Shown: positions 46,169 to 49,814 of the stretch, one piece after another | How the letters are laid out: every line of letters begins with the position of its first letter | Position numbering within the stretch: position 1 is the first letter of the stretch | DNA from: Candidatus Roizmanbacteria bacterium RIFCSPLOWO2_01_FULL_40_14 | GTDB taxonomy: Bacteria > Patescibacteriota > Microgenomatia > GCA-001788215 > 2-01-FULL-40-14 | DNA length: 62,223 nt | NCBI GenBank assembly: GCA_001788215.1 | Contig: MGAO01000037.1 | Coordinates: forward strand, 30,273 to 92,495 | Direction: 5' to 3' | Notes under the pieces: model-generated | Database searches by the model: none | The model's input: the letters and a program-made list of their open reading frames with translations, nothing else | Told to the model about the DNA's origin: nothing | Made by a program: the position numbers and the translations under genes

Positions 46169-46208
46169 CTATAGTAAAGATAGTATTTGCACGTGCGATA
46201 TACTATAG
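46169..46208. promoter_or_regulatory. Imperfect palindrome in a divergent promoter spacer (candidate operator)
   Basis: CTATAGTA (46169-46176) pairs with TACTATAG (46201-46208), and ATAGTAT (46180-46186) with ATACTAT (46200-46206). They flank the self-complementary core GCACGTGC (46189-46196). The site lies between the start of the minus-strand GT-C gene (46168) and the probable GTG start at 46235. Confidence 0.3.
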
Positions 46209-46234
46209 CATGGATTGTGTTTTTGATACAAGCT

Positions 46235-47329
46235 GTGAAAAAATTACCATATAAAAAATACGACGTTGTTGTCGTTGGTGGTGGATTTTATGGTACGATG
46301 CTGGCTCTGTTTTTACGTCGATTTGCCGATAGAGTTCTTCTCGTCGAAAAAGAAAAAGATATCCTGACAAAGGCATCATACAACAATCAAGCCCGTGTTC
46401 ATAATGGATATCATTACCCACGGAGTTTTATGACCGCTTATCGATCGCATCTAAATTACCGCGTATTTTCGCGTGAATTTAAAAAGGCTATTGCGCATTC
46501 GGTAAAGATGGTGTACGCGATTGCATCAAGCAATTCTAAAGTGACCGCACAACAGTTTATAAAATTCGCGCGGCAAATCGGATCACCATTGCAATCACCG
46601 CCCTGGTCTATTAGTTCACTATTTGATGCACGACTGATAGAACAAATATTCATGGTTGATGAACTGGTATTTGACGCGGCAATCCTCAGGAAAATTCTTA
46701 AAAAAAGACTGATATCAAACGACATAGGGCTTCTGTGTACGAGTGAGGTTGACTCTGTAGAACAGAAAAAGGACATACTAAGTCTTCAGTTGAACGATGA
46801 TAAGCATATTTTGACAAAAAACGCATTTATATGTGCCTACGCATCGATAAATACGATACTGTACAAATCACATCTTCCACCTCTTCCGTTTAAATTTGAG
46901 TGGACTGAAATGCCGTTAATTAAAGTAGATGACCAATTAGATGATATTGGTATTACCATCATGGACGGACCATTTTTTGGCGTTGTTCCATTTCCGGACC
47001 GCAATCTGCACACTATACATCATGTCCGATACACTCCTCACCAGACATATTTTGACAGCACAAAATCAGACGTCTATAAACCCCAAAAGTCGCATTATTT
47101 GTATATGATCAAAGATGCAGCTCGCTATATACCGTGCCTTTCACACGCTACTCACGTGGATTCACTGTATGAGATTCGGACCGTATTAACACAGCATGAG
47201 GATGATGACGGCCGTCCGATTCTTTATCGGCGAAATTACGGTATTCCCGGTCTGCATATTGTCATGGGAGGGAAAATAGATAATGTGTACGACGTTGTCA
47301 GGACGATTGAGCGTCATTTAATAGTATAA
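46235..47329 (+). CDS. FAD-dependent oxidoreductase (DAO/LhgO-GlpD-like fold)
   Basis: KKYDVVVVGGGFYGTMLALFL...VLLVEKE......ASYNNQARVHNGYHYP shows a Rossmann GxGxxG followed by the S..N....H.G..Y motif of DAO-family enzymes. The start is uncertain: GTG 46235 is preferred, and the ORF track gives TTG 46187. Confidence 0.65.
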   Translation: MKKLPYKKYDVVVVGGGFYGTMLALFLRRFADRVLLVEKEKDILTKASYNNQARVHNGYHYPRSFMTAYRSHLNYRVFSREFKKAIAHSVKMVYAIASSNSKVTAQQFIKFARQIGSPLQSPPWSISSLFDARLIEQIFMVDELVFDAAILRKILKKRLISNDIGLLCTSEVDSVEQKKDILSLQLNDDKHILTKNAFICAYASINTILYKSHLPPLPFKFEWTEMPLIKVDDQLDDIGITIMDGPFFGVVPFPDRNLHTIHHVRYTPHQTYFDSTKSDVYKPQKSHYLYMIKDAARYIPCLSHATHVDSLYEIRTVLTQHEDDDGRPILYRRNYGIPGLHIVMGGKIDNVYDVVRTIERHLIV

Positions 47330-48828
47330 ACCGCCTGCCGCCGGATACCAGATCGGTGAAGAAGATAGTTTATTATTTTAACCAGAATATTTACTCCATA
47401 AGGAATTCCTTTTATAAACGACATTTGTTGATTCTCATCGCGGTAACGAGTGGGATGTGAAATTTCAGCTATTCTGTATCCTCGGATGATTGCTTGAATG
47501 ACCAGATCAGAGTCAAAATCGTAATAGTCAGAAAGAAGGTCAAGCGGTACGTCTTTCAAGAATTTTGTTGAATAGGCGCGATATCCGTCATGGAAATCAG
47601 TGAGGTTTGTTTGAAATGCGGCATTTTCGAGAAGGGTAAGGAACCGGTTTGCCGTAAATTTCCAGAATGGCATACCATTTCTCAATACATCCCCGACAAT
47701 CATACGAGAACCCGTAATCAAATCATAATTTCCCTTTTTCCATGTTTGTATAAATAACGGGATGAGAGATGGGTCATATTGATCATCGCCATGAACGAGA
47801 ACGACAAAATCATATTTCTTCTTGATGGCTTCCTGGTATCCTGTTTTCTGTGCGCCGCCGTACCCTCTATTTTTCTTATGAGATATGACCGGTAGTTTCA
47901 GTTTTTTACACAGTGCGCGGGTTCCGTCAGTCGAGCCGTCATCAACGACGAGTATATCGCCACCATAATTTTTGGGAATTTCCCGAATGGTTTTTTCCAG
48001 AATGGGCGCGACATTGTACGCGGGGATGAGAATGAGAATTTTTTCTTTCTTTTTCTTGTCAATCTTTTTGCGCTCGTTGTTGATAAATATTTTTAGTTCT
48101 TTCAACGTCTCTTTTTTATGATAGATATACGAATCATGTGAGCCGTACAGTTTTGCGTATTTTGTTTTCACATCAAACAGCAGAGGCGGTTGATCAGTAA
48201 TGGTCGTAAACGATATATTACGGGTAACCCGTGCAAGCTCTTTAGCAGATATCGGCTCTACAGCCAAGTTGATAATCGGTATTTGATGGCGTAGGGTAAG
48301 TTGTATATCTTTCCACAGATTGGCAAGGTTGTACCACTGGTGCATGGTATCTTTGTGTGTGAAATCAAACATACGATCATGAATAAGATCATATACGAAA
48401 TTTTTTTTAAGACCGGGACCATAGAGTTGTGGTAAGCGGATAAACGTAGTTTTTGAAAAATGGGTTTTTATAAATTGCTCCATACGGAAACGATGACGTC
48501 CGTACGACTGGGTAAAATCAGATAACGTTATGACAGTATCTTCGGTACCTTCCGGAGTGGGATACACATCAATCGATGATATCAAGATAAAATGATCAGT
48601 CTCTACGTTAGCAAGATTATTTAATAATTTTTGTATATTTTGCCAGTCTTCTTGAGGATATTTATTTGCTCTCCAGCGTTCACCATGGACTCCAGCGCTG
48701 ACGATATAATCGTACCGCTTTCCCTGGATCTTATTGATATTTTTGGAATTGTAATAATCGGTAAACGTTGTCTGATCGGCCAGATTACTTCCGACAAAAC
48801 CAGTGTATCCGATAAGCGCTGTTTTCAT
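47314..48828 (-). CDS. Fusion protein: N-terminal atypical SDR/NAD-epimerase-like domain plus C-terminal DPM1-like GT2 domain
   Basis: The N-terminus has MKTALIGYTGFVGSNL (GxxGxxG) ...SSIDVY...SYGRHR (Y-x-x-x-R where Y-x-x-x-K is expected). After a KKIDKKKKEK linker comes ILILIPAYNVAP...ILVVDDGSTDGT...NRGYGGAQKTG...VVLVHGDDQYDP. ATGA overlap with the upstream (minus-strand) gene. Confidence 0.7.
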   Translation of the reverse strand: MKTALIGYTGFVGSNLADQTTFTDYYNSKNINKIQGKRYDYIVSAGVHGERWRANKYPQEDWQNIQKLLNNLANVETDHFILISSIDVYPTPEGTEDTVITLSDFTQSYGRHRFRMEQFIKTHFSKTTFIRLPQLYGPGLKKNFVYDLIHDRMFDFTHKDTMHQWYNLANLWKDIQLTLRHQIPIINLAVEPISAKELARVTRNISFTTITDQPPLLFDVKTKYAKLYGSHDSYIYHKKETLKELKIFINNERKKIDKKKKEKILILIPAYNVAPILEKTIREIPKNYGGDILVVDDGSTDGTRALCKKLKLPVISHKKNRGYGGAQKTGYQEAIKKKYDFVVLVHGDDQYDPSLIPLFIQTWKKGNYDLITGSRMIVGDVLRNGMPFWKFTANRFLTLLENAAFQTNLTDFHDGYRAYSTKFLKDVPLDLLSDYYDFDSDLVIQAIIRGYRIAEISHPTRYRDENQQMSFIKGIPYGVNILVKIINYLLHRSGIRRQAVYTIK

Positions 48829-49814
48829 ACGACATTCACCCTATCTTTATGAGGCAAAATAATTGATTTATCAATTTCATCGGCGATAAAATAAATCGGT
48901 TCATTTCGTGTCTCATTCATAATGCGGATAATGTATTCGGATAACAGCGTCAGAAGCGAAAAAAGTAAAAAAAACATCATGCCGATAACAGTAGCAACGC
49001 TAATCCACCCTTGAGGGGCTAAGCGGATGTCAAAAATCAGGTATGCGAGTATAATGGCAAAAACATATAAGAGAAATAACAGGCTTATCAATATACCAAT
49101 AGCGGTCAGAAATCTAATCGGCCGAAATGAATTGGATATGATAATATCGGCGACCGATATAATAGTTTGCACAAAAGACTCGGGCTTCAGTTTGTAGGAA
49201 AACCTTTTAAGGGGCGTATAATAGTAAACTCTCGTCTTAAGACCAATAAGATAATTGATATAACTAAAATTTCTGCTTTTCCTTCTGGTACGTACGATGG
49301 AATTGACCGCTTTTCTGTTTAATGCCATAAGATAATTTTCTTTATAAACGAATTTGTGAGATGTAAATCTGGAAACTGTTTGTAGCAACAGCTTGTTGAT
49401 CATATTCCGTTTCCCCGTTTCTGTTTTTGGATACCCGATGATACTATCGTATCCGAGATGCAACATGCGGATAAGCATTCTAATAACCCGTGGCGGGTCC
49501 GTATAAATATTCAATAATACTACATAGTCCCCGATGCAGGTATCAAGCCCTGCGGTAAGGGCAATTGGTGTATCATAAGGCTTTGAAAGAACCACGATCC
49601 TGATGTAGGGATTTTTCTTTCCGTAGTTTCTGATCTTATCTATTGTATCGTCTGTGGAATAATTGTCAACAAATAGCAATTCATAATTACATTGCAGGGA
49701 CTTCATTTGACTGATAATATTTTTCAGCCGGTCCTCTATAATATCTGAATCGTTTTGAGTTATAATAATTACCGAGATAATCGTTTCAGAAAGATTAAAA
49801 TGATTTTTCTTCAT
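48825..49814 (-). CDS. GtrB/CsbB-like membrane-anchored GT2 with degenerate catalytic motifs
   Basis: ISVIIITQNDSD...ELLFVDNYSTDDT...LSKPYDTPIALTAGLD.CIGDYVVLLNIYTDPP plus two C-terminal TM helices, the GtrB architecture. The canonical D-x-D (IDVDLQDP in GtrB) reads LNIYTDPP, and VDDGS reads VDNYS. Confidence 0.6.
   Translation of the reverse strand: MKKNHFNLSETIISVIIITQNDSDIIEDRLKNIISQMKSLQCNYELLFVDNYSTDDTIDKIRNYGKKNPYIRIVVLSKPYDTPIALTAGLDTCIGDYVVLLNIYTDPPRVIRMLIRMLHLGYDSIIGYPKTETGKRNMINKLLLQTVSRFTSHKFVYKENYLMALNRKAVNSIVRTRRKSRNFSYINYLIGLKTRVYYYTPLKRFSYKLKPESFVQTIISVADIIISNSFRPIRFLTAIGILISLLFLLYVFAIILAYLIFDIRLAPQGWISVATVIGMMFFLLFSLLTLLSEYIIRIMNETRNEPIYFIADEIDKSIILPHKDRVNVV

What the first reader, a model, noticed from the sequence alone, without database searches (positions are those of the whole stretch)
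46187..49814. Divergent unit of FAD oxidoreductase / SDR-GT2 fusion / DXD-less GtrB-like protein: a candidate route for modifying a sugar on its lipid carrier
On the minus strand, a membrane-anchored GtrB-like GT2 (48825..49814) is ATGA-coupled to a soluble protein (47314..48828). That protein fuses an atypical SDR/epimerase-like domain (GYTGFVGSNL; YGRHR instead of YxxxK) to an intact DPM1-like GT2 domain (VVDDGSTDGT ... HGDDQYDP). A DAO-family FAD oxidoreductase (46235..47329) converges on it with a 16-nt overlap. An FAD oxidase and an SDR reductase physically linked to a polyprenyl-phosphate-sugar synthase recall the logic of the mycobacterial DprE1/DprE2 pair. That pair oxidises and then reduces decaprenyl-P-ribose to give the arabinose donor used by GT-C enzymes. 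The folds differ here (DAO-type rather than a vanillyl-alcohol-oxidase-type FAD domain), so any such pathway would be analogous rather than homologous. With 19 GT-C enzymes nearby needing lipid-linked donors, an on-lipid epimerisation pathway is an attractive hypothesis, though unproven.
Basis: inference. Interest (0 to 1): 0.7.

Follow-up and report, generated by a model that had tools for sequence, protein, structure and literature searches.

The report
Rearranged lipid-linked sugar-remodelling gene cassette
The three genes are a trimmed, rearranged copy of a very widespread but biochemically uncharacterised gene cassette that probably makes a chemically remodelled, lipid-carried sugar for decorating cell-surface glycans; in E. 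coli the full cassette tracks with the rare sugar 4-deoxy-D-arabino-hexose of the O162 antigen, whose biosynthesis is still unknown.

Summary
A DAO-type FAD oxidoreductase (46235..47329 +) converges with a 16-nt overlap on an SDR-like/GT2 fusion (47314..48828 -). That fusion is ATGA-coupled to a GtrB-like protein lacking the DXD motif and the catalytic Asp (48825..49814 -).

The trio is not an isolated oddity. It is a derived version of a five-to-seven-gene cassette: FAD, "pseudo-GtrB", a YxxxR SDR-like protein, a xylose-isomerase-like TIM barrel and a small "DGNxKD" GT2, often with an SMR/GtrA flippase and a polytopic GT-C-like protein. The SDR-like marker occurs in at least 563 species-representative genomes of bacteria and archaea. 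All five core genes lie within 10 kb in 58 of 80 loci examined.

In E. coli the cassette sits between gnd and ugd in O101/O162. Published genetics link it, unproven, to the 4-deoxy-D-arabino-hexose side branch of O162.

The window's copy has lost the TIM barrel. It has swapped the DGN-type GT2 for a canonical-looking DPM1-like GT2 fused to the SDR-like domain, an architecture found nowhere else among 1.84 billion representatives.

Best reading: a membrane-anchored system that makes a polyprenyl-phosphate sugar and remodels it by oxidation and reduction for the adjacent GT-C enzyme. Whether the chemistry happens on the lipid or on the nucleotide sugar is unresolved.

The parts
46235..47329 (+). 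DAO/GR2-fold FAD-dependent oxidoreductase (alternative TTG start at 46187). It belongs to a distinct family with an invariant 'NNQARVHNGYHYPRS' motif that is tightly syntenic with the cassette.
   Evidence: Pfam DAO 53.6 bits. AF2 model pLDDT 87.3. Foldseek matches glycine oxidase, sarcosine oxidase and GlpD/GlpO at TM 0.70-0.76 with 11-17% identity. It is 48-49% identical to the FAD genes of CPR cassettes and 40% to the E. coli O162-type gene. FAD lies within 10 kb of the SDR-like marker in 67 of 80 loci. FAD+SDR-like fusions are P0264 and P0357.
48064..48828 (-). N-terminal SDR-like domain of the fusion (residues 1-255). It has an extended-SDR fold and the family-invariant motifs GxxGFVG, NSxNI, YGxxR (Lys replaced by Arg), E117, RLPxLxG..KKN and D147.
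   Evidence: Alignment A1. Model pLDDT 92.8. Foldseek matches GalE, RmlD and RmlB. It is 51-58% identical to the SDR-like halves of the CPR SDR+TIM fusions. At least 563 species genomes encode a relative.
48043..48063 (-). Lys-rich linker (KIDKKKK, residues 256-262) at the domain-swap junction between the SDR-like domain and the GT2 domain.
   Evidence: The sequence reads '…FINNERKKIDKKKKEKILILIPAYN' in the window. Relatives read '…FIQKERSKTKIAISNLAW' at the SDR/TIM boundary.
47314..48042 (-). C-terminal DPM1/PpgS-like GT2 domain (residues 263-504, plus the stop codon). It belongs to the 'H-x-D-x-Q-Y-D-P' subfamily, retains DDGS, the second Asp and the Gln, and ends in a hydrophobic tail. It is the probable polyprenyl-phosphate sugar synthase.
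   Evidence: Pfam GT2 90.7 bits. The best NCBIfam hits are all polyprenyl-P glycosyltransferases (AglJ, PpgS, Dol-P-hexose transferase, PgfS), all sub-threshold. PfDPMS 5MLZ matches at 2.5e-9. It is only 28-33% identical to the cassette's usual small GT2. The motif is shared with P0006, P0015, P0022 and P0241. A GT87 GT-C is fused to this subfamily in P0301.
48825..49814 (-). 'Pseudo-GtrB': a GtrB/ArnC-fold protein with two C-terminal TM helices and a conserved juxtamembrane motif. It lacks D94, D96 (DXD) and D157 of GtrB. It is ATGA-coupled to the fusion gene.
   Evidence: Full-length alignment to GtrB 5EKP at 1e-25 and to ArnC. GtrB residue roles come from PMC4728340. Across 74 cassette-linked homologs, D96 and D157 are never Asp, while EYxxRxxxExxxRPxY is nearly invariant. 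It is 45-47% identical to its CPR cassette counterparts. The ATGA overlap is shown.
43922..46168 (-). GT-C (PMT_2-type) glycosyltransferase, the probable user of the lipid-linked donor. It is a full-length homolog of the GT-C that flanks the cassette in related CPR genomes.
   Evidence: Pfam PMT_2 58 bits and PMT 43 bits. It is 31-34% identical over about 750 aa to the GT-C next to the cassettes in L001-L003. This GT-C type is adjacent in L009-L014.

Best explanation
The trio, together with the adjacent GT-C, is a lineage-specific, reduced variant of a widespread glycan-decoration cassette.

Proposed mechanism; every step is inferred.
1. The C-terminal DPM1-like GT2 domain of the fusion transfers a common hexose or HexNAc from an NDP-sugar to polyprenyl phosphate at the inner face of the membrane.
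2. The catalytically disabled GtrB-like protein is co-translated through the ATGA overlap. It serves as membrane anchor and lipid-substrate scaffold, much as DPM3/DPM2 do for DPM1.
3. The DAO-type flavoenzyme oxidises one sugar hydroxyl to a ketone.
4. The tethered YxxxR SDR-like domain reduces that ketone with NAD(P)H, giving an epimeric sugar.
5. The product is flipped and used by the neighbouring PMT_2-type GT-C outside the membrane.

In the canonical cassette a metal-dependent TIM barrel acts between oxidation and reduction. It resembles ketose 3-epimerases and the 3-keto-glucoside 4-epimerase YcjR. Enediolate chemistry there would allow epimerisation or beta-elimination, which would explain a 4-deoxyhexose such as the one in E. 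coli O162. The window lacks that enzyme, so its product should be a simple epimer rather than a deoxy sugar.

Shown: folds, motifs, synteny, fusions and the E. coli locus identity. Inferred: substrates, order of steps, on-lipid timing and the scaffold role.
For: Synteny: the SDR-like marker occurs in at least 563 species genomes. Within 10 kb of it, FAD is present in 67 of 80 loci, TIM in 73, GtrB-like in 70 and the small GT2 in 72; all five are present in 58 of 80.

CPR relatives show GT-C | GtrB-like > SDR+TIM > GT2 > < FAD.

Fusions link the components pairwise: FAD+SDR-like (P0264, P0357), SDR-like+TIM, SDR-like+GT2 (the window itself), and GT87 GT-C + HxD-type GT2 (P0301).

Flippase and GT-C partners are present: GtrA and PMT_2 in Paenibacillus, and an EamA/SMR-like protein, GtrA and large polytopic proteins elsewhere. 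In E. coli the block between gnd and ugd reads FAD, pseudo-GtrB, SDR-like, TIM, EmrE-like SMR, GT2 and a 452-aa membrane protein. A 10.8-kb Psychrobacter plasmid carries little besides the cassette.

Genetics from the literature: O162 equals O101 plus 4-deoxy-D-arabino-hexose. The gnd-ugd genes are intact in O162 and IS-disrupted in O101 (PMC7685785; PMC13168486).

Catalytic plausibility: invariant YGxxR, GxxGxxG and an extended-SDR fold; a DAO fold with 69 invariant columns that include the window protein; the window GT2 keeps the positions equivalent to PfDPMS D91 and Q93.

The pseudo-GtrB loses donor-site residues across the whole family but keeps the juxtamembrane motif.

An independent TIM-less arrangement exists in Sporosalibacterium.

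On-lipid sugar epimerisation has precedents in DprE1/E2 and in ORF13 of C. youngae O2 (PMC11127046).
Against: There are no biochemical data for any member. The O162/O101 correlation involves an IS in the first gene, which could be polar on everything downstream, and it has not been tested by complementation.

Nothing distinguishes modification on the lipid from modification on the NDP-sugar. An SDR-GT2 fusion fits either order.

The window lacks two canonical components (TIM and the DGN-type GT2) and has no recognisable GtrA nearby. Its pathway may therefore differ from the E. coli one or be incomplete.

Positions equivalent to R122 and R125 of GtrB, which are needed for acceptor binding, are not conserved in the pseudo-GtrB family (the window has P and E). 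This weakens the claim that it is a lipid-phosphate-binding scaffold.

The Fusobacterium locus has the SDR-like/TIM/FAD genes but no obvious GT-C or flippase.
Confidence: 0.62

Rival explanations
1. Same pathway and same end product (a modified polyprenyl-P-sugar donor for GT-C enzymes), but the FAD oxidation and SDR reduction (plus the TIM step in the canonical cassette) act on the soluble NDP-sugar. The GT2 then loads the finished sugar onto the lipid, and the pseudo-GtrB is merely a membrane anchor.
For: Most known sugar tailoring by extended SDRs occurs on NDP-sugars; the closest folds are GalE, RmlD and RmlB. A reductase fused upstream of a GT2 would channel its product into the transferase. 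Fusobacterium has the SDR-like/TIM/FAD genes in an LOS/CPS locus without an obvious GT-C or flippase. The cassette's small GT2 has an unusual donor site (DGNxKD), which could reflect an unusual donor sugar.
Against: No nucleotidyltransferase and no NDP-sugar 4,6-dehydratase belongs to the conserved core. DAO-type flavoenzymes and xylose-isomerase-like TIM barrels are not known NDP-sugar tailoring enzymes. The nearest TIM relatives act on free keto-sugars or on glycosides such as 3-keto-glucoside. A whole family of catalytically disabled but otherwise well conserved GtrB homologs is easier to explain if it handles the lipid-linked intermediate. GlpD, a membrane-associated quinone-linked enzyme, is among the best structural matches to the FAD enzyme.
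Confidence: 0.27
2. The window's trio is a decaying remnant of the cassette. After loss of the TIM barrel and the DGN-type GT2, the remaining genes no longer make a modified sugar. At most the fused GT2 makes an ordinary polyprenyl-P-hexose.
For: The TIM barrel and the DGN-type GT2 are absent from the whole 62-kb window. The SDR-GT2 architecture is unique among 1.84 billion representatives, as a recent accident would be.
Against: All three ORFs are intact and retain every family-invariant residue, since the window sequence is part of the invariant-column sets. The ATGA coupling is preserved. The swap occurred exactly at the domain boundary with an intact GT2. The identical protein is seen on 19 contigs from several sources. 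Another TIM-less SDR-like/FAD/GT2 arrangement exists in a Firmicute, and FAD+SDR-like fusions without a TIM domain exist.
Confidence: 0.07
3. The redox enzymes modify the lipid carrier or a non-sugar substituent, for example polyprenol saturation or oxidation, or a glycerol- or glycerate-type group, rather than the sugar ring.
For: The weak best NCBIfam hits of the FAD enzyme are to glycerol-3-P oxidase type 2 and to flavin hydroxylases and reductases, through the N-terminal FAD motif only. TIM-barrel relatives include hydroxypyruvate isomerase and 2-oxo-tetronate isomerase.
Against: Those hits are 20-40 bits against cutoffs above 180 bits and cover only the dinucleotide-binding motif. The best TIM matches are ketose 3-epimerases and a 3-keto-glucoside epimerase. 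The SDR-like fold matches sugar epimerases and reductases. The only phenotype correlate is a modified hexose.
Confidence: 0.04

Closest known systems
E. coli O101/O162 gnd-ugd gene block (candidate 4-deoxy-D-arabino-hexose side-branch genes; Liu et al. 2019, PMC7685785)
   Same: The window has orthologs of the FAD oxidoreductase (40% identity), the YxxxR SDR-like protein (37%) and the DXD-less GtrB-like 'hypothetical protein' (27% over full length), with the same signature motifs. Both are associated with a polytopic membrane glycosyltransferase candidate and a glycan locus.
   Different: E. coli has seven separate genes, including a TIM barrel, an EmrE-like SMR protein and a 'DGNxKD' small GT2. 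The window lacks the TIM barrel and the SMR protein, and replaces the small GT2 with an 'HxDxQYDP' GT2 fused to the SDR-like domain. The E. coli function is itself only hypothesised from an IS-disruption correlation.
Mycobacterial DprE1/DprE2 (decaprenyl-P-ribose 2'-epimerase) with GtrA-like Rv3789 and GT-C arabinosyltransferases
   Same: The logic is the same: a flavoenzyme oxidation followed by an NAD(P)H-dependent SDR reduction yields a lipid-linked donor for GT-C enzymes, encoded next to a GT-C. The FAD and SDR partners are tightly coupled (here they even occur as fusions in other organisms).
   Different: DprE1 has a VAO/PCMH-type FAD fold, whereas this enzyme has the DAO/GR2 fold. DprE2 is a classical YxxxK SDR, whereas this is an extended SDR with YxxxR. 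The mycobacterial lipid-linked substrate is made from PRPP by a UbiA-type transferase, whereas here the candidate synthase is a GT2. The resemblance is analogy, not homology.
Three-component extracytoplasmic glycosylation systems (GtrABC; ArnC/ArnD/ArnEF/ArnT; the pentofuranose system of Kelly et al. 2024, PMC11127046)
   Same: A polyprenyl-P-sugar synthase, a small flippase and a GT-C transferase, with optional auxiliary enzymes that alter the sugar after it is on the lipid (ArnD deformylase; ORF13 SDR epimerase).
   Different: Here the GtrB/ArnC homolog has lost its catalytic residues and is paired with a second, soluble GT2. The auxiliary enzymes (DAO flavoenzyme, YxxxR SDR-like protein, and a ketose-epimerase-like TIM barrel in the canonical form) are not found in any characterised system. 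No flippase was identified next to the window's trio.
E. coli YcjS/YcjR/YcjQ glycoside pathway (3-dehydrogenase, TIM-barrel 3-keto-D-glucoside 4-epimerase, dehydrogenase)
   Same: It uses an oxidise, epimerise-next-to-the-ketone, then reduce sequence on a glycoside. YcjR (PDB 6wn6) is a detectable relative of the cassette's TIM barrel (3e-8). Some cassette variants fuse the SDR-like domain to a Gfo/Idh/MocA dehydrogenase like YcjS.
   Different: It is a catabolic, soluble pathway with no lipid carrier, no GT2 and no flavoenzyme. The window itself lacks the TIM-barrel component.
Eukaryotic DPM1-DPM2-DPM3 (and Alg13/Alg14): a soluble catalytic GT anchored by a non-catalytic membrane partner
   Same: A soluble or peripherally attached DPM1-like GT2 is encoded together with a non-catalytic membrane protein that could anchor it and present polyprenyl phosphate.
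   Different: Here the putative anchor is itself a full-length GtrB homolog (a pseudoenzyme), not a small unrelated TM protein. The interaction is untested.

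Membership tests
Widespread FAD / pseudo-GtrB / SDR-like(YxxxR) / TIM / DGN-GT2 cassette (E. coli O162 gnd-ugd type) | DAO-fold FAD oxidoreductase of the 'NNQARVHNGYHYPRS' family | tested here: met
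   HMM 587 bits. 48-49% identity to CPR cassette FADs and 40% to E. coli. The invariant columns include the window sequence.
Widespread FAD / pseudo-GtrB / SDR-like(YxxxR) / TIM / DGN-GT2 cassette (E. coli O162 gnd-ugd type) | Extended-SDR-like protein with invariant YGxxR, NSxNI and KKN motifs | tested here: met
   Alignment A1; 51-58% identity to the CPR SDR+TIM fusions.
Widespread FAD / pseudo-GtrB / SDR-like(YxxxR) / TIM / DGN-GT2 cassette (E. coli O162 gnd-ugd type) | GtrB-fold membrane protein lacking DXD and D157 but keeping the EYxxRxxxExxxRPxY motif | tested here: met
   The window has N/Y at positions 94/96, Y at 157, and the motif 'EYIIRIMNETRNEPIY'.
Widespread FAD / pseudo-GtrB / SDR-like(YxxxR) / TIM / DGN-GT2 cassette (E. 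coli O162 gnd-ugd type) | Xylose-isomerase-like TIM barrel (E/D/H/E metal site) adjacent to or fused to the SDR-like protein | tested here: not met
   No TIM hit anywhere in the 62-kb window. It is present in 73 of 80 other loci.
Widespread FAD / pseudo-GtrB / SDR-like(YxxxR) / TIM / DGN-GT2 cassette (E. coli O162 gnd-ugd type) | Small soluble GT2 with invariant DGGSTDGS … DGNxKD … QGSR | tested here: not met
   The window's GT2 domain reads VDDGSTDGT … HGDDQYD … TGSR and is 28-33% identical. It belongs to a different subfamily.
Widespread FAD / pseudo-GtrB / SDR-like(YxxxR) / TIM / DGN-GT2 cassette (E. coli O162 gnd-ugd type) | Product is 4-deoxy-D-arabino-hexose on a surface glycan | not testable with these tools
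   Only a literature correlation exists for E. coli O162 versus O101. There are no glycan data for the CPR organism.
DprE1/DprE2 decaprenyl-P-ribose epimerase | DprE1: VAO/PCMH-type FAD-binding fold | tested here: not met
   Pfam DAO. Foldseek top hits are glycine oxidase, sarcosine oxidase and GlpD of the GR2/DAAO fold.
DprE1/DprE2 decaprenyl-P-ribose epimerase | DprE2: classical SDR with catalytic YxxxK | tested here: not met
   Extended-SDR fold with a family-invariant YGxxR.
DprE1/DprE2 decaprenyl-P-ribose epimerase | Substrate supplied by a PRPP-dependent UbiA-type polyprenyl-P phosphoribosyltransferase | not tested
   No dedicated search for a UbiA-type enzyme was run. The candidate synthase adjacent to the trio is a GT2.
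Polyisoprenyl-phosphate glycosyltransferases (GtrB/ArnC/DPMS), applied to 48825..49814 | GT-A domain plus juxtamembrane helices plus two C-terminal TM helices | tested here: met
   Full-length alignment to 5EKP residues 20-328 and to ArnC; NCBIfam PgfS and ArnC hits span the full length.
Polyisoprenyl-phosphate glycosyltransferases (GtrB/ArnC/DPMS), applied to 48825..49814 | DXD motif (GtrB D94/D96) binding the metal and the NDP | tested here: not met
   N and Y in the window. Position 96 is never Asp in 74 homologs. The residue role comes from PMC4728340.
Polyisoprenyl-phosphate glycosyltransferases (GtrB/ArnC/DPMS), applied to 48825..49814 | Catalytic Asp (GtrB D157; the D157N mutant is inactive) | tested here: not met
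   Y in the window; Y/Q/S/T/H across the family (PMC4728340).
Polyisoprenyl-phosphate glycosyltransferases (GtrB/ArnC/DPMS), applied to 48825..49814 | Acceptor-phosphate and juxtamembrane basic residues (R122, R125, R200, R290) | tested here: inconclusive
   The window has P, E, R and R respectively. Across the family, R290 is R or K in 59 of 74, R200 is R or K in 37 of 74, and R122 is R in 21 of 74. The alignment is uncertain in loop regions.
Polyisoprenyl-phosphate glycosyltransferases (DPM1/PpgS-like), applied to fusion residues 263-504 | GT-A domain with DDxS, a metal-binding Asp and Gln (PfDPMS D91/Q93) and GSR | tested here: met
   VDDGSTD, HGDDQ (Asp and Gln retained; first Asp replaced by His) and TGSR. 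NCBIfam best hits AglJ, PpgS and Dol-P-hexose transferase are all below the equivalog cutoffs.
Polyisoprenyl-phosphate glycosyltransferases (DPM1/PpgS-like), applied to fusion residues 263-504 | Transfers a sugar to polyprenyl phosphate | not testable with these tools
   Indirect support only: a GT87 GT-C is fused to the same GT2 subfamily in P0301.
Extended SDR (GalE/RmlD-like NAD(P)-dependent epimerase/reductase), applied to fusion residues 1-255 | Rossmann fold with an N-terminal GxxGxxG | tested here: met
   GYTGFVG is invariant. Model and Foldseek hits at TM 0.70-0.73. Pfam Epimerase 26.9 bits against a cutoff of 20.9.
Extended SDR (GalE/RmlD-like NAD(P)-dependent epimerase/reductase), applied to fusion residues 1-255 | Catalytic Tyr-x-x-x-Lys | tested here: not met
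   Tyr is retained, but Lys is Arg in all 18 aligned family members.
Characterised DAO subfamilies (glycerol-3-P oxidase, L-2-hydroxyglutarate oxidase, glycine or sarcosine oxidase) | Score above the NCBIfam equivalog cutoff | tested here: not met
   Best scores are 37.7 bits against 460 (G3P oxidase type 2) and 21 bits against 299 (LhgO), covering only the FAD-binding N-terminus.
Three-component extracytoplasmic glycosylation system | Lipid-P-sugar synthase, dedicated flippase and GT-C encoded together | tested here: inconclusive
   A synthase candidate and a GT-C are adjacent. No GtrA was detected in the window, and SMR proteins were not specifically searched. A Wzx-type protein lies at 33686..34942. 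Flippases are present next to the cassette in Paenibacillus, Saccharibacteria, E. coli and Psychrobacter.

The most novel reading that the evidence does not exclude
The cassette encodes a previously undescribed way of remodelling a sugar while it sits on its polyprenyl-phosphate carrier. A catalytically dead GtrB homolog holds the lipid-linked hexose made by a partner GT2. A DAO-type flavoenzyme then oxidises it. In the full cassette, a ketose-epimerase-like TIM barrel performs enediolate chemistry that epimerises or eliminates the 4-OH. A YxxxR SDR-like reductase finishes the job. This would be a new deoxygenation and epimerisation route, independent of NDP-sugar 4,6-dehydratase or PMP chemistry, and it would solve the unknown biosynthesis of 4-deoxy-D-arabino-hexose. 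The CPR window would be a natural 'minimal' TIM-less version, with the reductase physically fused to the lipid-sugar synthase.
Probability: 0.35. Interest if true: 0.85.

Novelty: new variant of a known kind. Interest (0 to 1): 0.68.

Why it matters
The biosynthesis of 4-deoxy-D-arabino-hexose is explicitly described as unknown (PMC7685785; PMC11231755). This sugar occurs in O-antigens of E. coli O162, Citrobacter and Franconibacter.

This analysis connects a CPR gene trio to a coherent, mobile cassette present in hundreds of species across bacteria and archaea. It defines the cassette's conserved parts: a pseudo-GtrB, a DGNxKD GT2, a YxxxR SDR-like protein, a DAO flavoenzyme and a TIM barrel. 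It also shows that the parts are linked by synteny and by multiple gene fusions.

The question therefore becomes directly testable in a tractable organism, E. coli O162 versus O101.

If the chemistry occurs on the lipid carrier, it would add a third, mechanistically new example of on-lipid sugar tailoring, beside DprE1/E2 and Arn. DprE1 is a validated drug target.

It would also reveal a conserved pseudo-glycosyltransferase scaffold. Finally, it would help explain how CPR bacteria with very many GT-C enzymes diversify their surface glycans.

Tried and rejected
(1) Simple deletion model. I first supposed the window's fusion arose by deleting the TIM domain between the SDR-like domain and the cassette's own small GT2. 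I rejected this. The C-terminal GT2 is only 28-33% identical to that GT2 and belongs to a different subfamily (HxDxQYDP versus DGNxKD). Its closest relatives (55-58%) are standalone GT2s in unrelated loci. The event is a domain replacement.

(2) YGRHR as a sign of a dead SDR. Rejected, because YGxxR is invariant across the family.

(3) The FAD enzyme as an L-2-hydroxyglutarate, glycerol-3-P or amino-acid oxidase. Rejected on NCBIfam scores and on synteny.

(4) Literature searches for the cassette by component names found nothing. Only the E. coli serogroup route led to relevant papers.

(5) The Franconibacter pulveris O1 paper (PMID 27166227) is not held.

(7) A phage origin is not supported. 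Only one weak hit (26% identity) was found among 50,697 phage records.

(8) No TIM barrel, DGN-type GT2 or GtrA homolog was found elsewhere in the window.

Full report
OBSERVATION

The three ORFs are real and positioned as described. The GtrB-like gene (48825..49814, minus strand) and the fusion gene (47314..48828, minus strand) overlap by ATGA. The FAD gene (46235, or 46187, to 47329, plus strand) converges on the fusion gene with a 16-nt overlap.

Pfam calls DAO for the first protein, Epimerase plus GT2 for the second, and GT2 for the third. The third protein aligns over its whole length, including two C-terminal TM helices, to the solved GtrB and ArnC structures.

The database copy of the fusion protein names the source as a CPR bacterium, 'Microgenomates group bacterium GW2011_GWC1_41_8'. 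The identical protein is seen on 19 contigs. The window is rich in GT-C-type proteins.

THE DOMAINS

N-terminal half of the fusion. An AF2 model is confident (pLDDT 92.8). It matches GalE, RmlD and RmlB extended SDRs at TM 0.70-0.73. The unusual YGRHR is not decay. In an alignment of 18 homologs from many phyla, GxxGFVG, NSxNI, Y109-G110-x-x-R113, E117, RLPxLxG, KKN and D147 are all invariant. This is a distinct YxxxR branch of the extended SDRs.

FAD protein. The model (pLDDT 87.3) matches glycine oxidase, sarcosine oxidase and GlpD/GlpO at TM 0.70-0.76, but with only 11-17% identity. Its NCBIfam scores are far below every equivalog cutoff. It belongs to a strongly conserved family of its own, about 50% identical across phyla, with an invariant 'NNQARVHNGYHYPRS' motif.

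GtrB-like protein. The GtrB structure paper (PMC4728340) assigns D94xD96 to metal and UDP binding. It shows that D157N abolishes activity. The window protein has N, Y and Y at these three positions.

C-terminal GT2 domain of the fusion. It keeps DDGS, and it keeps the Asp and Gln that correspond to PfDPMS D91 and Q93, within an 'H-x-D-x-Q-Y-D-P' motif shared by its subfamily. Its best NCBIfam matches are sub-threshold, but all are polyprenyl-phosphate glycosyltransferases: AglJ, PpgS, Dol-P-hexose transferase and PgfS.

THE NEIGHBOURHOOD IS A CONSERVED CASSETTE

The closest relatives of the SDR-like domain (50-58% identity) are roughly 520-aa proteins in which that domain is fused to a xylose-isomerase-like TIM barrel. 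In three independent CPR contigs the gene order is: GT-C (PMT_2) divergent from GtrB-like, then SDR+TIM, then a small GT2, with the DAO-FAD gene convergent.

The same genes occur as separate ORFs in Paenibacillus thiaminolyticus, in the order PMT_2, GtrA, GT2, SDR-like, TIM, DAO, GT2. They also occur in Fusobacterium necrophorum.

For the 80 best loci I built HMMs and counted components within 10 kb. The loci span Microgenomates, Saccharibacteria, Parcubacteria, Paenibacillus, Acidobacteriota, Planctomycetota, Gemmatimonadota, Cyanobacteria, Myxococcota, Bdellovibrionota, Gammaproteobacteria, Verrucomicrobiota, Chloroflexota and Methanothrix. The counts were FAD in 67 loci, TIM in 73, GtrB-like in 70 and the small GT2 in 72. 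All five core genes were present in 58 of 80 loci, and most misses lie at contig ends.

Recurrent accessory genes are GtrA, an EamA/SMR-like protein of about 120 aa, several families of large polytopic membrane proteins with no Pfam match, PGT and rml genes.

A 10.8-kb Psychrobacter plasmid carries essentially only this cassette plus mob and rep genes.

BOTH GT2 PARTNERS ARE NON-CANONICAL ACROSS THE FAMILY

In 74 cassette-linked GtrB-like proteins, position 96 and position 157 are never Asp. The C-terminal juxtamembrane motif EYxxRxxxExxxRPxY is almost invariant. R290 is R or K in 59 of 74, and R122 and R200 are less well kept. This is a conserved pseudo-GtrB, not a one-off.

The cassette's small GT2 has its own invariant signature: DGGSTDGS … D-G-N-x-K-D … QGSR, in 72-73 of 75 sequences. 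By inference, the Asp-to-Asn and Gln-to-Lys changes at the two metal-site positions look like a coordinated shift to a different way of binding the donor.

THE TIM BARREL

The TIM family keeps the E/D/H/E metal site. Its nearest solved relatives are TM0416, D-tagatose and D-psicose 3-epimerases, L-ribulose 3-epimerase, IolI and the 3-keto-D-glucoside 4-epimerase YcjR. All of these act on the carbon next to a carbonyl.

HOW THE WINDOW DIFFERS

The window contains no TIM barrel and no DGN-type GT2. The SDR-like domain ends exactly where relatives switch to the TIM domain. There it continues, after a Lys-rich linker, into a GT2 domain. That GT2 is only 28-33% identical to the cassette's small GT2. 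Its closest relatives are standalone GT2s from other loci. This is a domain replacement, not a simple deletion.

An exhaustive HMMER search of 1.84 billion representative proteins found no other protein matching both halves.

The window's FAD, SDR-like and pseudo-GtrB proteins keep every family-invariant residue. The adjacent GT-C is a full-length homolog of the GT-C beside the CPR cassettes. An independent TIM-less arrangement (GT8-like, SDR-like, FAD, GT2-like) exists in Sporosalibacterium.

FUSIONS AS FUNCTIONAL LINKS

Elsewhere the DAO-FAD and SDR-like proteins occur as one polypeptide, carrying the cassette-type motifs (P0264, P0357). The SDR-like domain is also found fused to TIM, or to a Gfo/Idh/MocA dehydrogenase. 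A GT87-family GT-C is fused to a GT2 of the window's HxD subfamily (P0301).

Together with the window's own SDR-GT2 fusion, these links connect flavoenzyme, reductase, TIM barrel, lipid-sugar synthase and GT-C into a single pathway.

LINK TO A KNOWN GLYCAN

The Phytobacter version of the cassette is 75% identical at the DNA level to a block found in 8 of 5,426 complete E. coli genomes. In strain NCTC10973 it lies between gnd and ugd, next to an O89/O101/O162-family wzm/wzt O-antigen cluster. The order is FAD, 'hypothetical' (the pseudo-GtrB), SDR-like, TIM, an EmrE-like SMR protein, GT2 and a 452-aa membrane protein.

The E. coli O-antigen review reports that O162 differs from O101 by a side branch of 4-deoxy-D-arabino-hexose. 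It reports that the two O-antigen clusters are 99.8% identical. It also reports that the extra genes between gnd and ugd are intact in O162, while the first one is IS-interrupted in O101. The review states that the pathway for this sugar is unknown and that the role of these genes needs investigation (PMC7685785).

A 2026 paper still calls them hypothesised modification genes (PMC13168486). For Franconibacter pulveris O1, whose side chain has the same sugar, 'the mode of synthesis … is unclear' (PMC11231755). I found no biochemical characterisation.

The E. coli proteins are orthologous to the window's: FAD 40%, SDR-like 37% and pseudo-GtrB 27% over full length, with the same motifs.

MECHANISM (INFERRED)

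For the canonical cassette, a polyprenyl-P-hexose would be formed by the soluble GT2 working with the pseudo-GtrB. A hydroxyl would then be oxidised by the flavoenzyme. The TIM barrel would generate an enediolate next to the ketone, allowing epimerisation or beta-elimination of the 4-OH. The SDR-like enzyme would then reduce the product, with the reduced flavin possibly supplying a second reduction. The product would be flipped by an SMR or GtrA protein and transferred by a GT-C-like enzyme.

4-Deoxy-D-arabino-hexose has both C2 and C3 inverted relative to glucose. That is what passage through keto or enediol intermediates at those carbons would allow. This stereochemical argument is my own reasoning and was not tested.

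For the window, which has no TIM barrel, the simplest outcome is oxidation followed by reduction, giving an epimer.

On-lipid tailoring has precedents in DprE1/E2 and in the ORF13 SDR that converts undP-Ribf to undP-Xylf (PMC11127046). However, nothing here excludes tailoring at the NDP-sugar stage, and that is the main rival.

COMPARISON AND NOVELTY

The system works like a three-component extracytoplasmic glycosylation system with auxiliary tailoring enzymes. It is analogous to DprE1/E2, not homologous: the FAD fold is DAO rather than VAO, the reductase is an extended YxxxR SDR rather than a classical YxxxK SDR, and the synthase is a GT2 rather than a UbiA-type enzyme.

The cassette has been noticed only as an unexplained gene block in E. 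coli O101/O162. I did not find descriptions of its breadth, its pseudo-GtrB and DGN-GT2 pair, or its fusion network. The window's SDR-GT2 fusion is unique.

I classify the finding as a new variant of a known kind. It is of fairly high interest because it turns an open question, the origin of 4-deoxy-D-arabino-hexose, into a set of direct experiments.

Noticed in passing
window 50634..52073 (+), with 52066..53094, 53096..54046, 54016..55941, 55856..57103 and 57093..58913: An RfbH/E1-type CDP-4-keto-6-deoxyglucose 3-dehydrase (NCBIfam NF011936, 546 bits, above the cutoff of 423) is followed by a GT2, an extended SDR, an FkbM-methyltransferase+GT4 fusion, a GT4 and a carbamoyltransferase. This is a dideoxyhexose-type, heavily decorated glycan locus in a CPR genome, right next to the trio.
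   Followed up: partly
window 14033..27533 (+): Nine tandem paralogous ORFs of about 540-580 aa, all polytopic membrane proteins (PMT_2-like where Pfam scores). This is an unusually large tandem expansion of GT-C-type enzymes.
   Followed up: partly
window 1081..3168 (+): A PMT-like GT-C N-terminal region is fused to a penicillin-binding-protein dimerisation domain (PF03717). This is an unusual architecture that hints at a link between glycosylation and cell-wall synthesis.
   Followed up: no
window 12928..14031 (+): A DprA (DNA-processing protein A) gene is embedded in the middle of the glycosylation locus.
   Followed up: no
L090 (Psychrobacter sp. plasmid pA22P4, NZ_MN657058.1) 2336..8624: A 10.8-kb plasmid consists of mob and rep genes plus SDR-like, TIM, SMR, FAD, an unannotated ~1-kb gap (where I guess, untested, that the GtrB-like gene lies), GT2 and a 480-aa hypothetical. 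The cassette therefore travels as a self-contained mobile unit.
   Followed up: partly
P0264, P0357, P0244, P0024, P0301, P0257, P0252 (database proteins): Multiple alternative fusions occur: DAO-FAD+SDR-like; SDR-like+Gfo/Idh/MocA dehydrogenase (replacing TIM); GT87 GT-C + HxD-type GT2; HAD phosphatase+GT2; methyltransferase+GT2. Together they suggest a modular toolkit for lipid-linked sugar tailoring.
   Followed up: partly
L042 (Methanothrix sp.) 9941..18782; L044 (Nanoarchaeota): All five core genes are present in a methanogenic archaeon, and the SDR-like gene alone is present in a Nanoarchaeota contig. This implies inter-domain transfer of the module.
   Followed up: no
L047, L054, L064, L074 (Saccharibacteria), about 10760..12540: Two TIM-barrel ORFs lie in tandem after the SDR-like gene, the first scoring much lower. 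This may be duplication and divergence of the TIM step.
   Followed up: no
L010, L012, L013, L014: The MAGs holding the closest cassette relatives are labelled 'uncultured Gammaproteobacteria', but their gene content and identity to the window look CPR/Microgenomates-like. The taxonomy may be mislabelled.
   Followed up: no
L089 19031..20389 (E. coli NCTC10973) and L037 5012..6382 (Saccharibacteria): A family of polytopic membrane proteins of about 450-460 aa with no Pfam match recurs at the end of the cassette, with an N-terminal 'FYPG[WF]MS.D' motif. It is likely an unclassified GT-C-like transferase for the modified sugar.
   Followed up: partly
window 10849..11577 (+): A second, fully canonical DPM1-like soluble GT2 (PF00535, 131 bits) sits elsewhere in the window, next to GT-C genes. 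It probably supplies an ordinary polyprenyl-P-sugar donor for some of the many GT-C enzymes.
   Followed up: no
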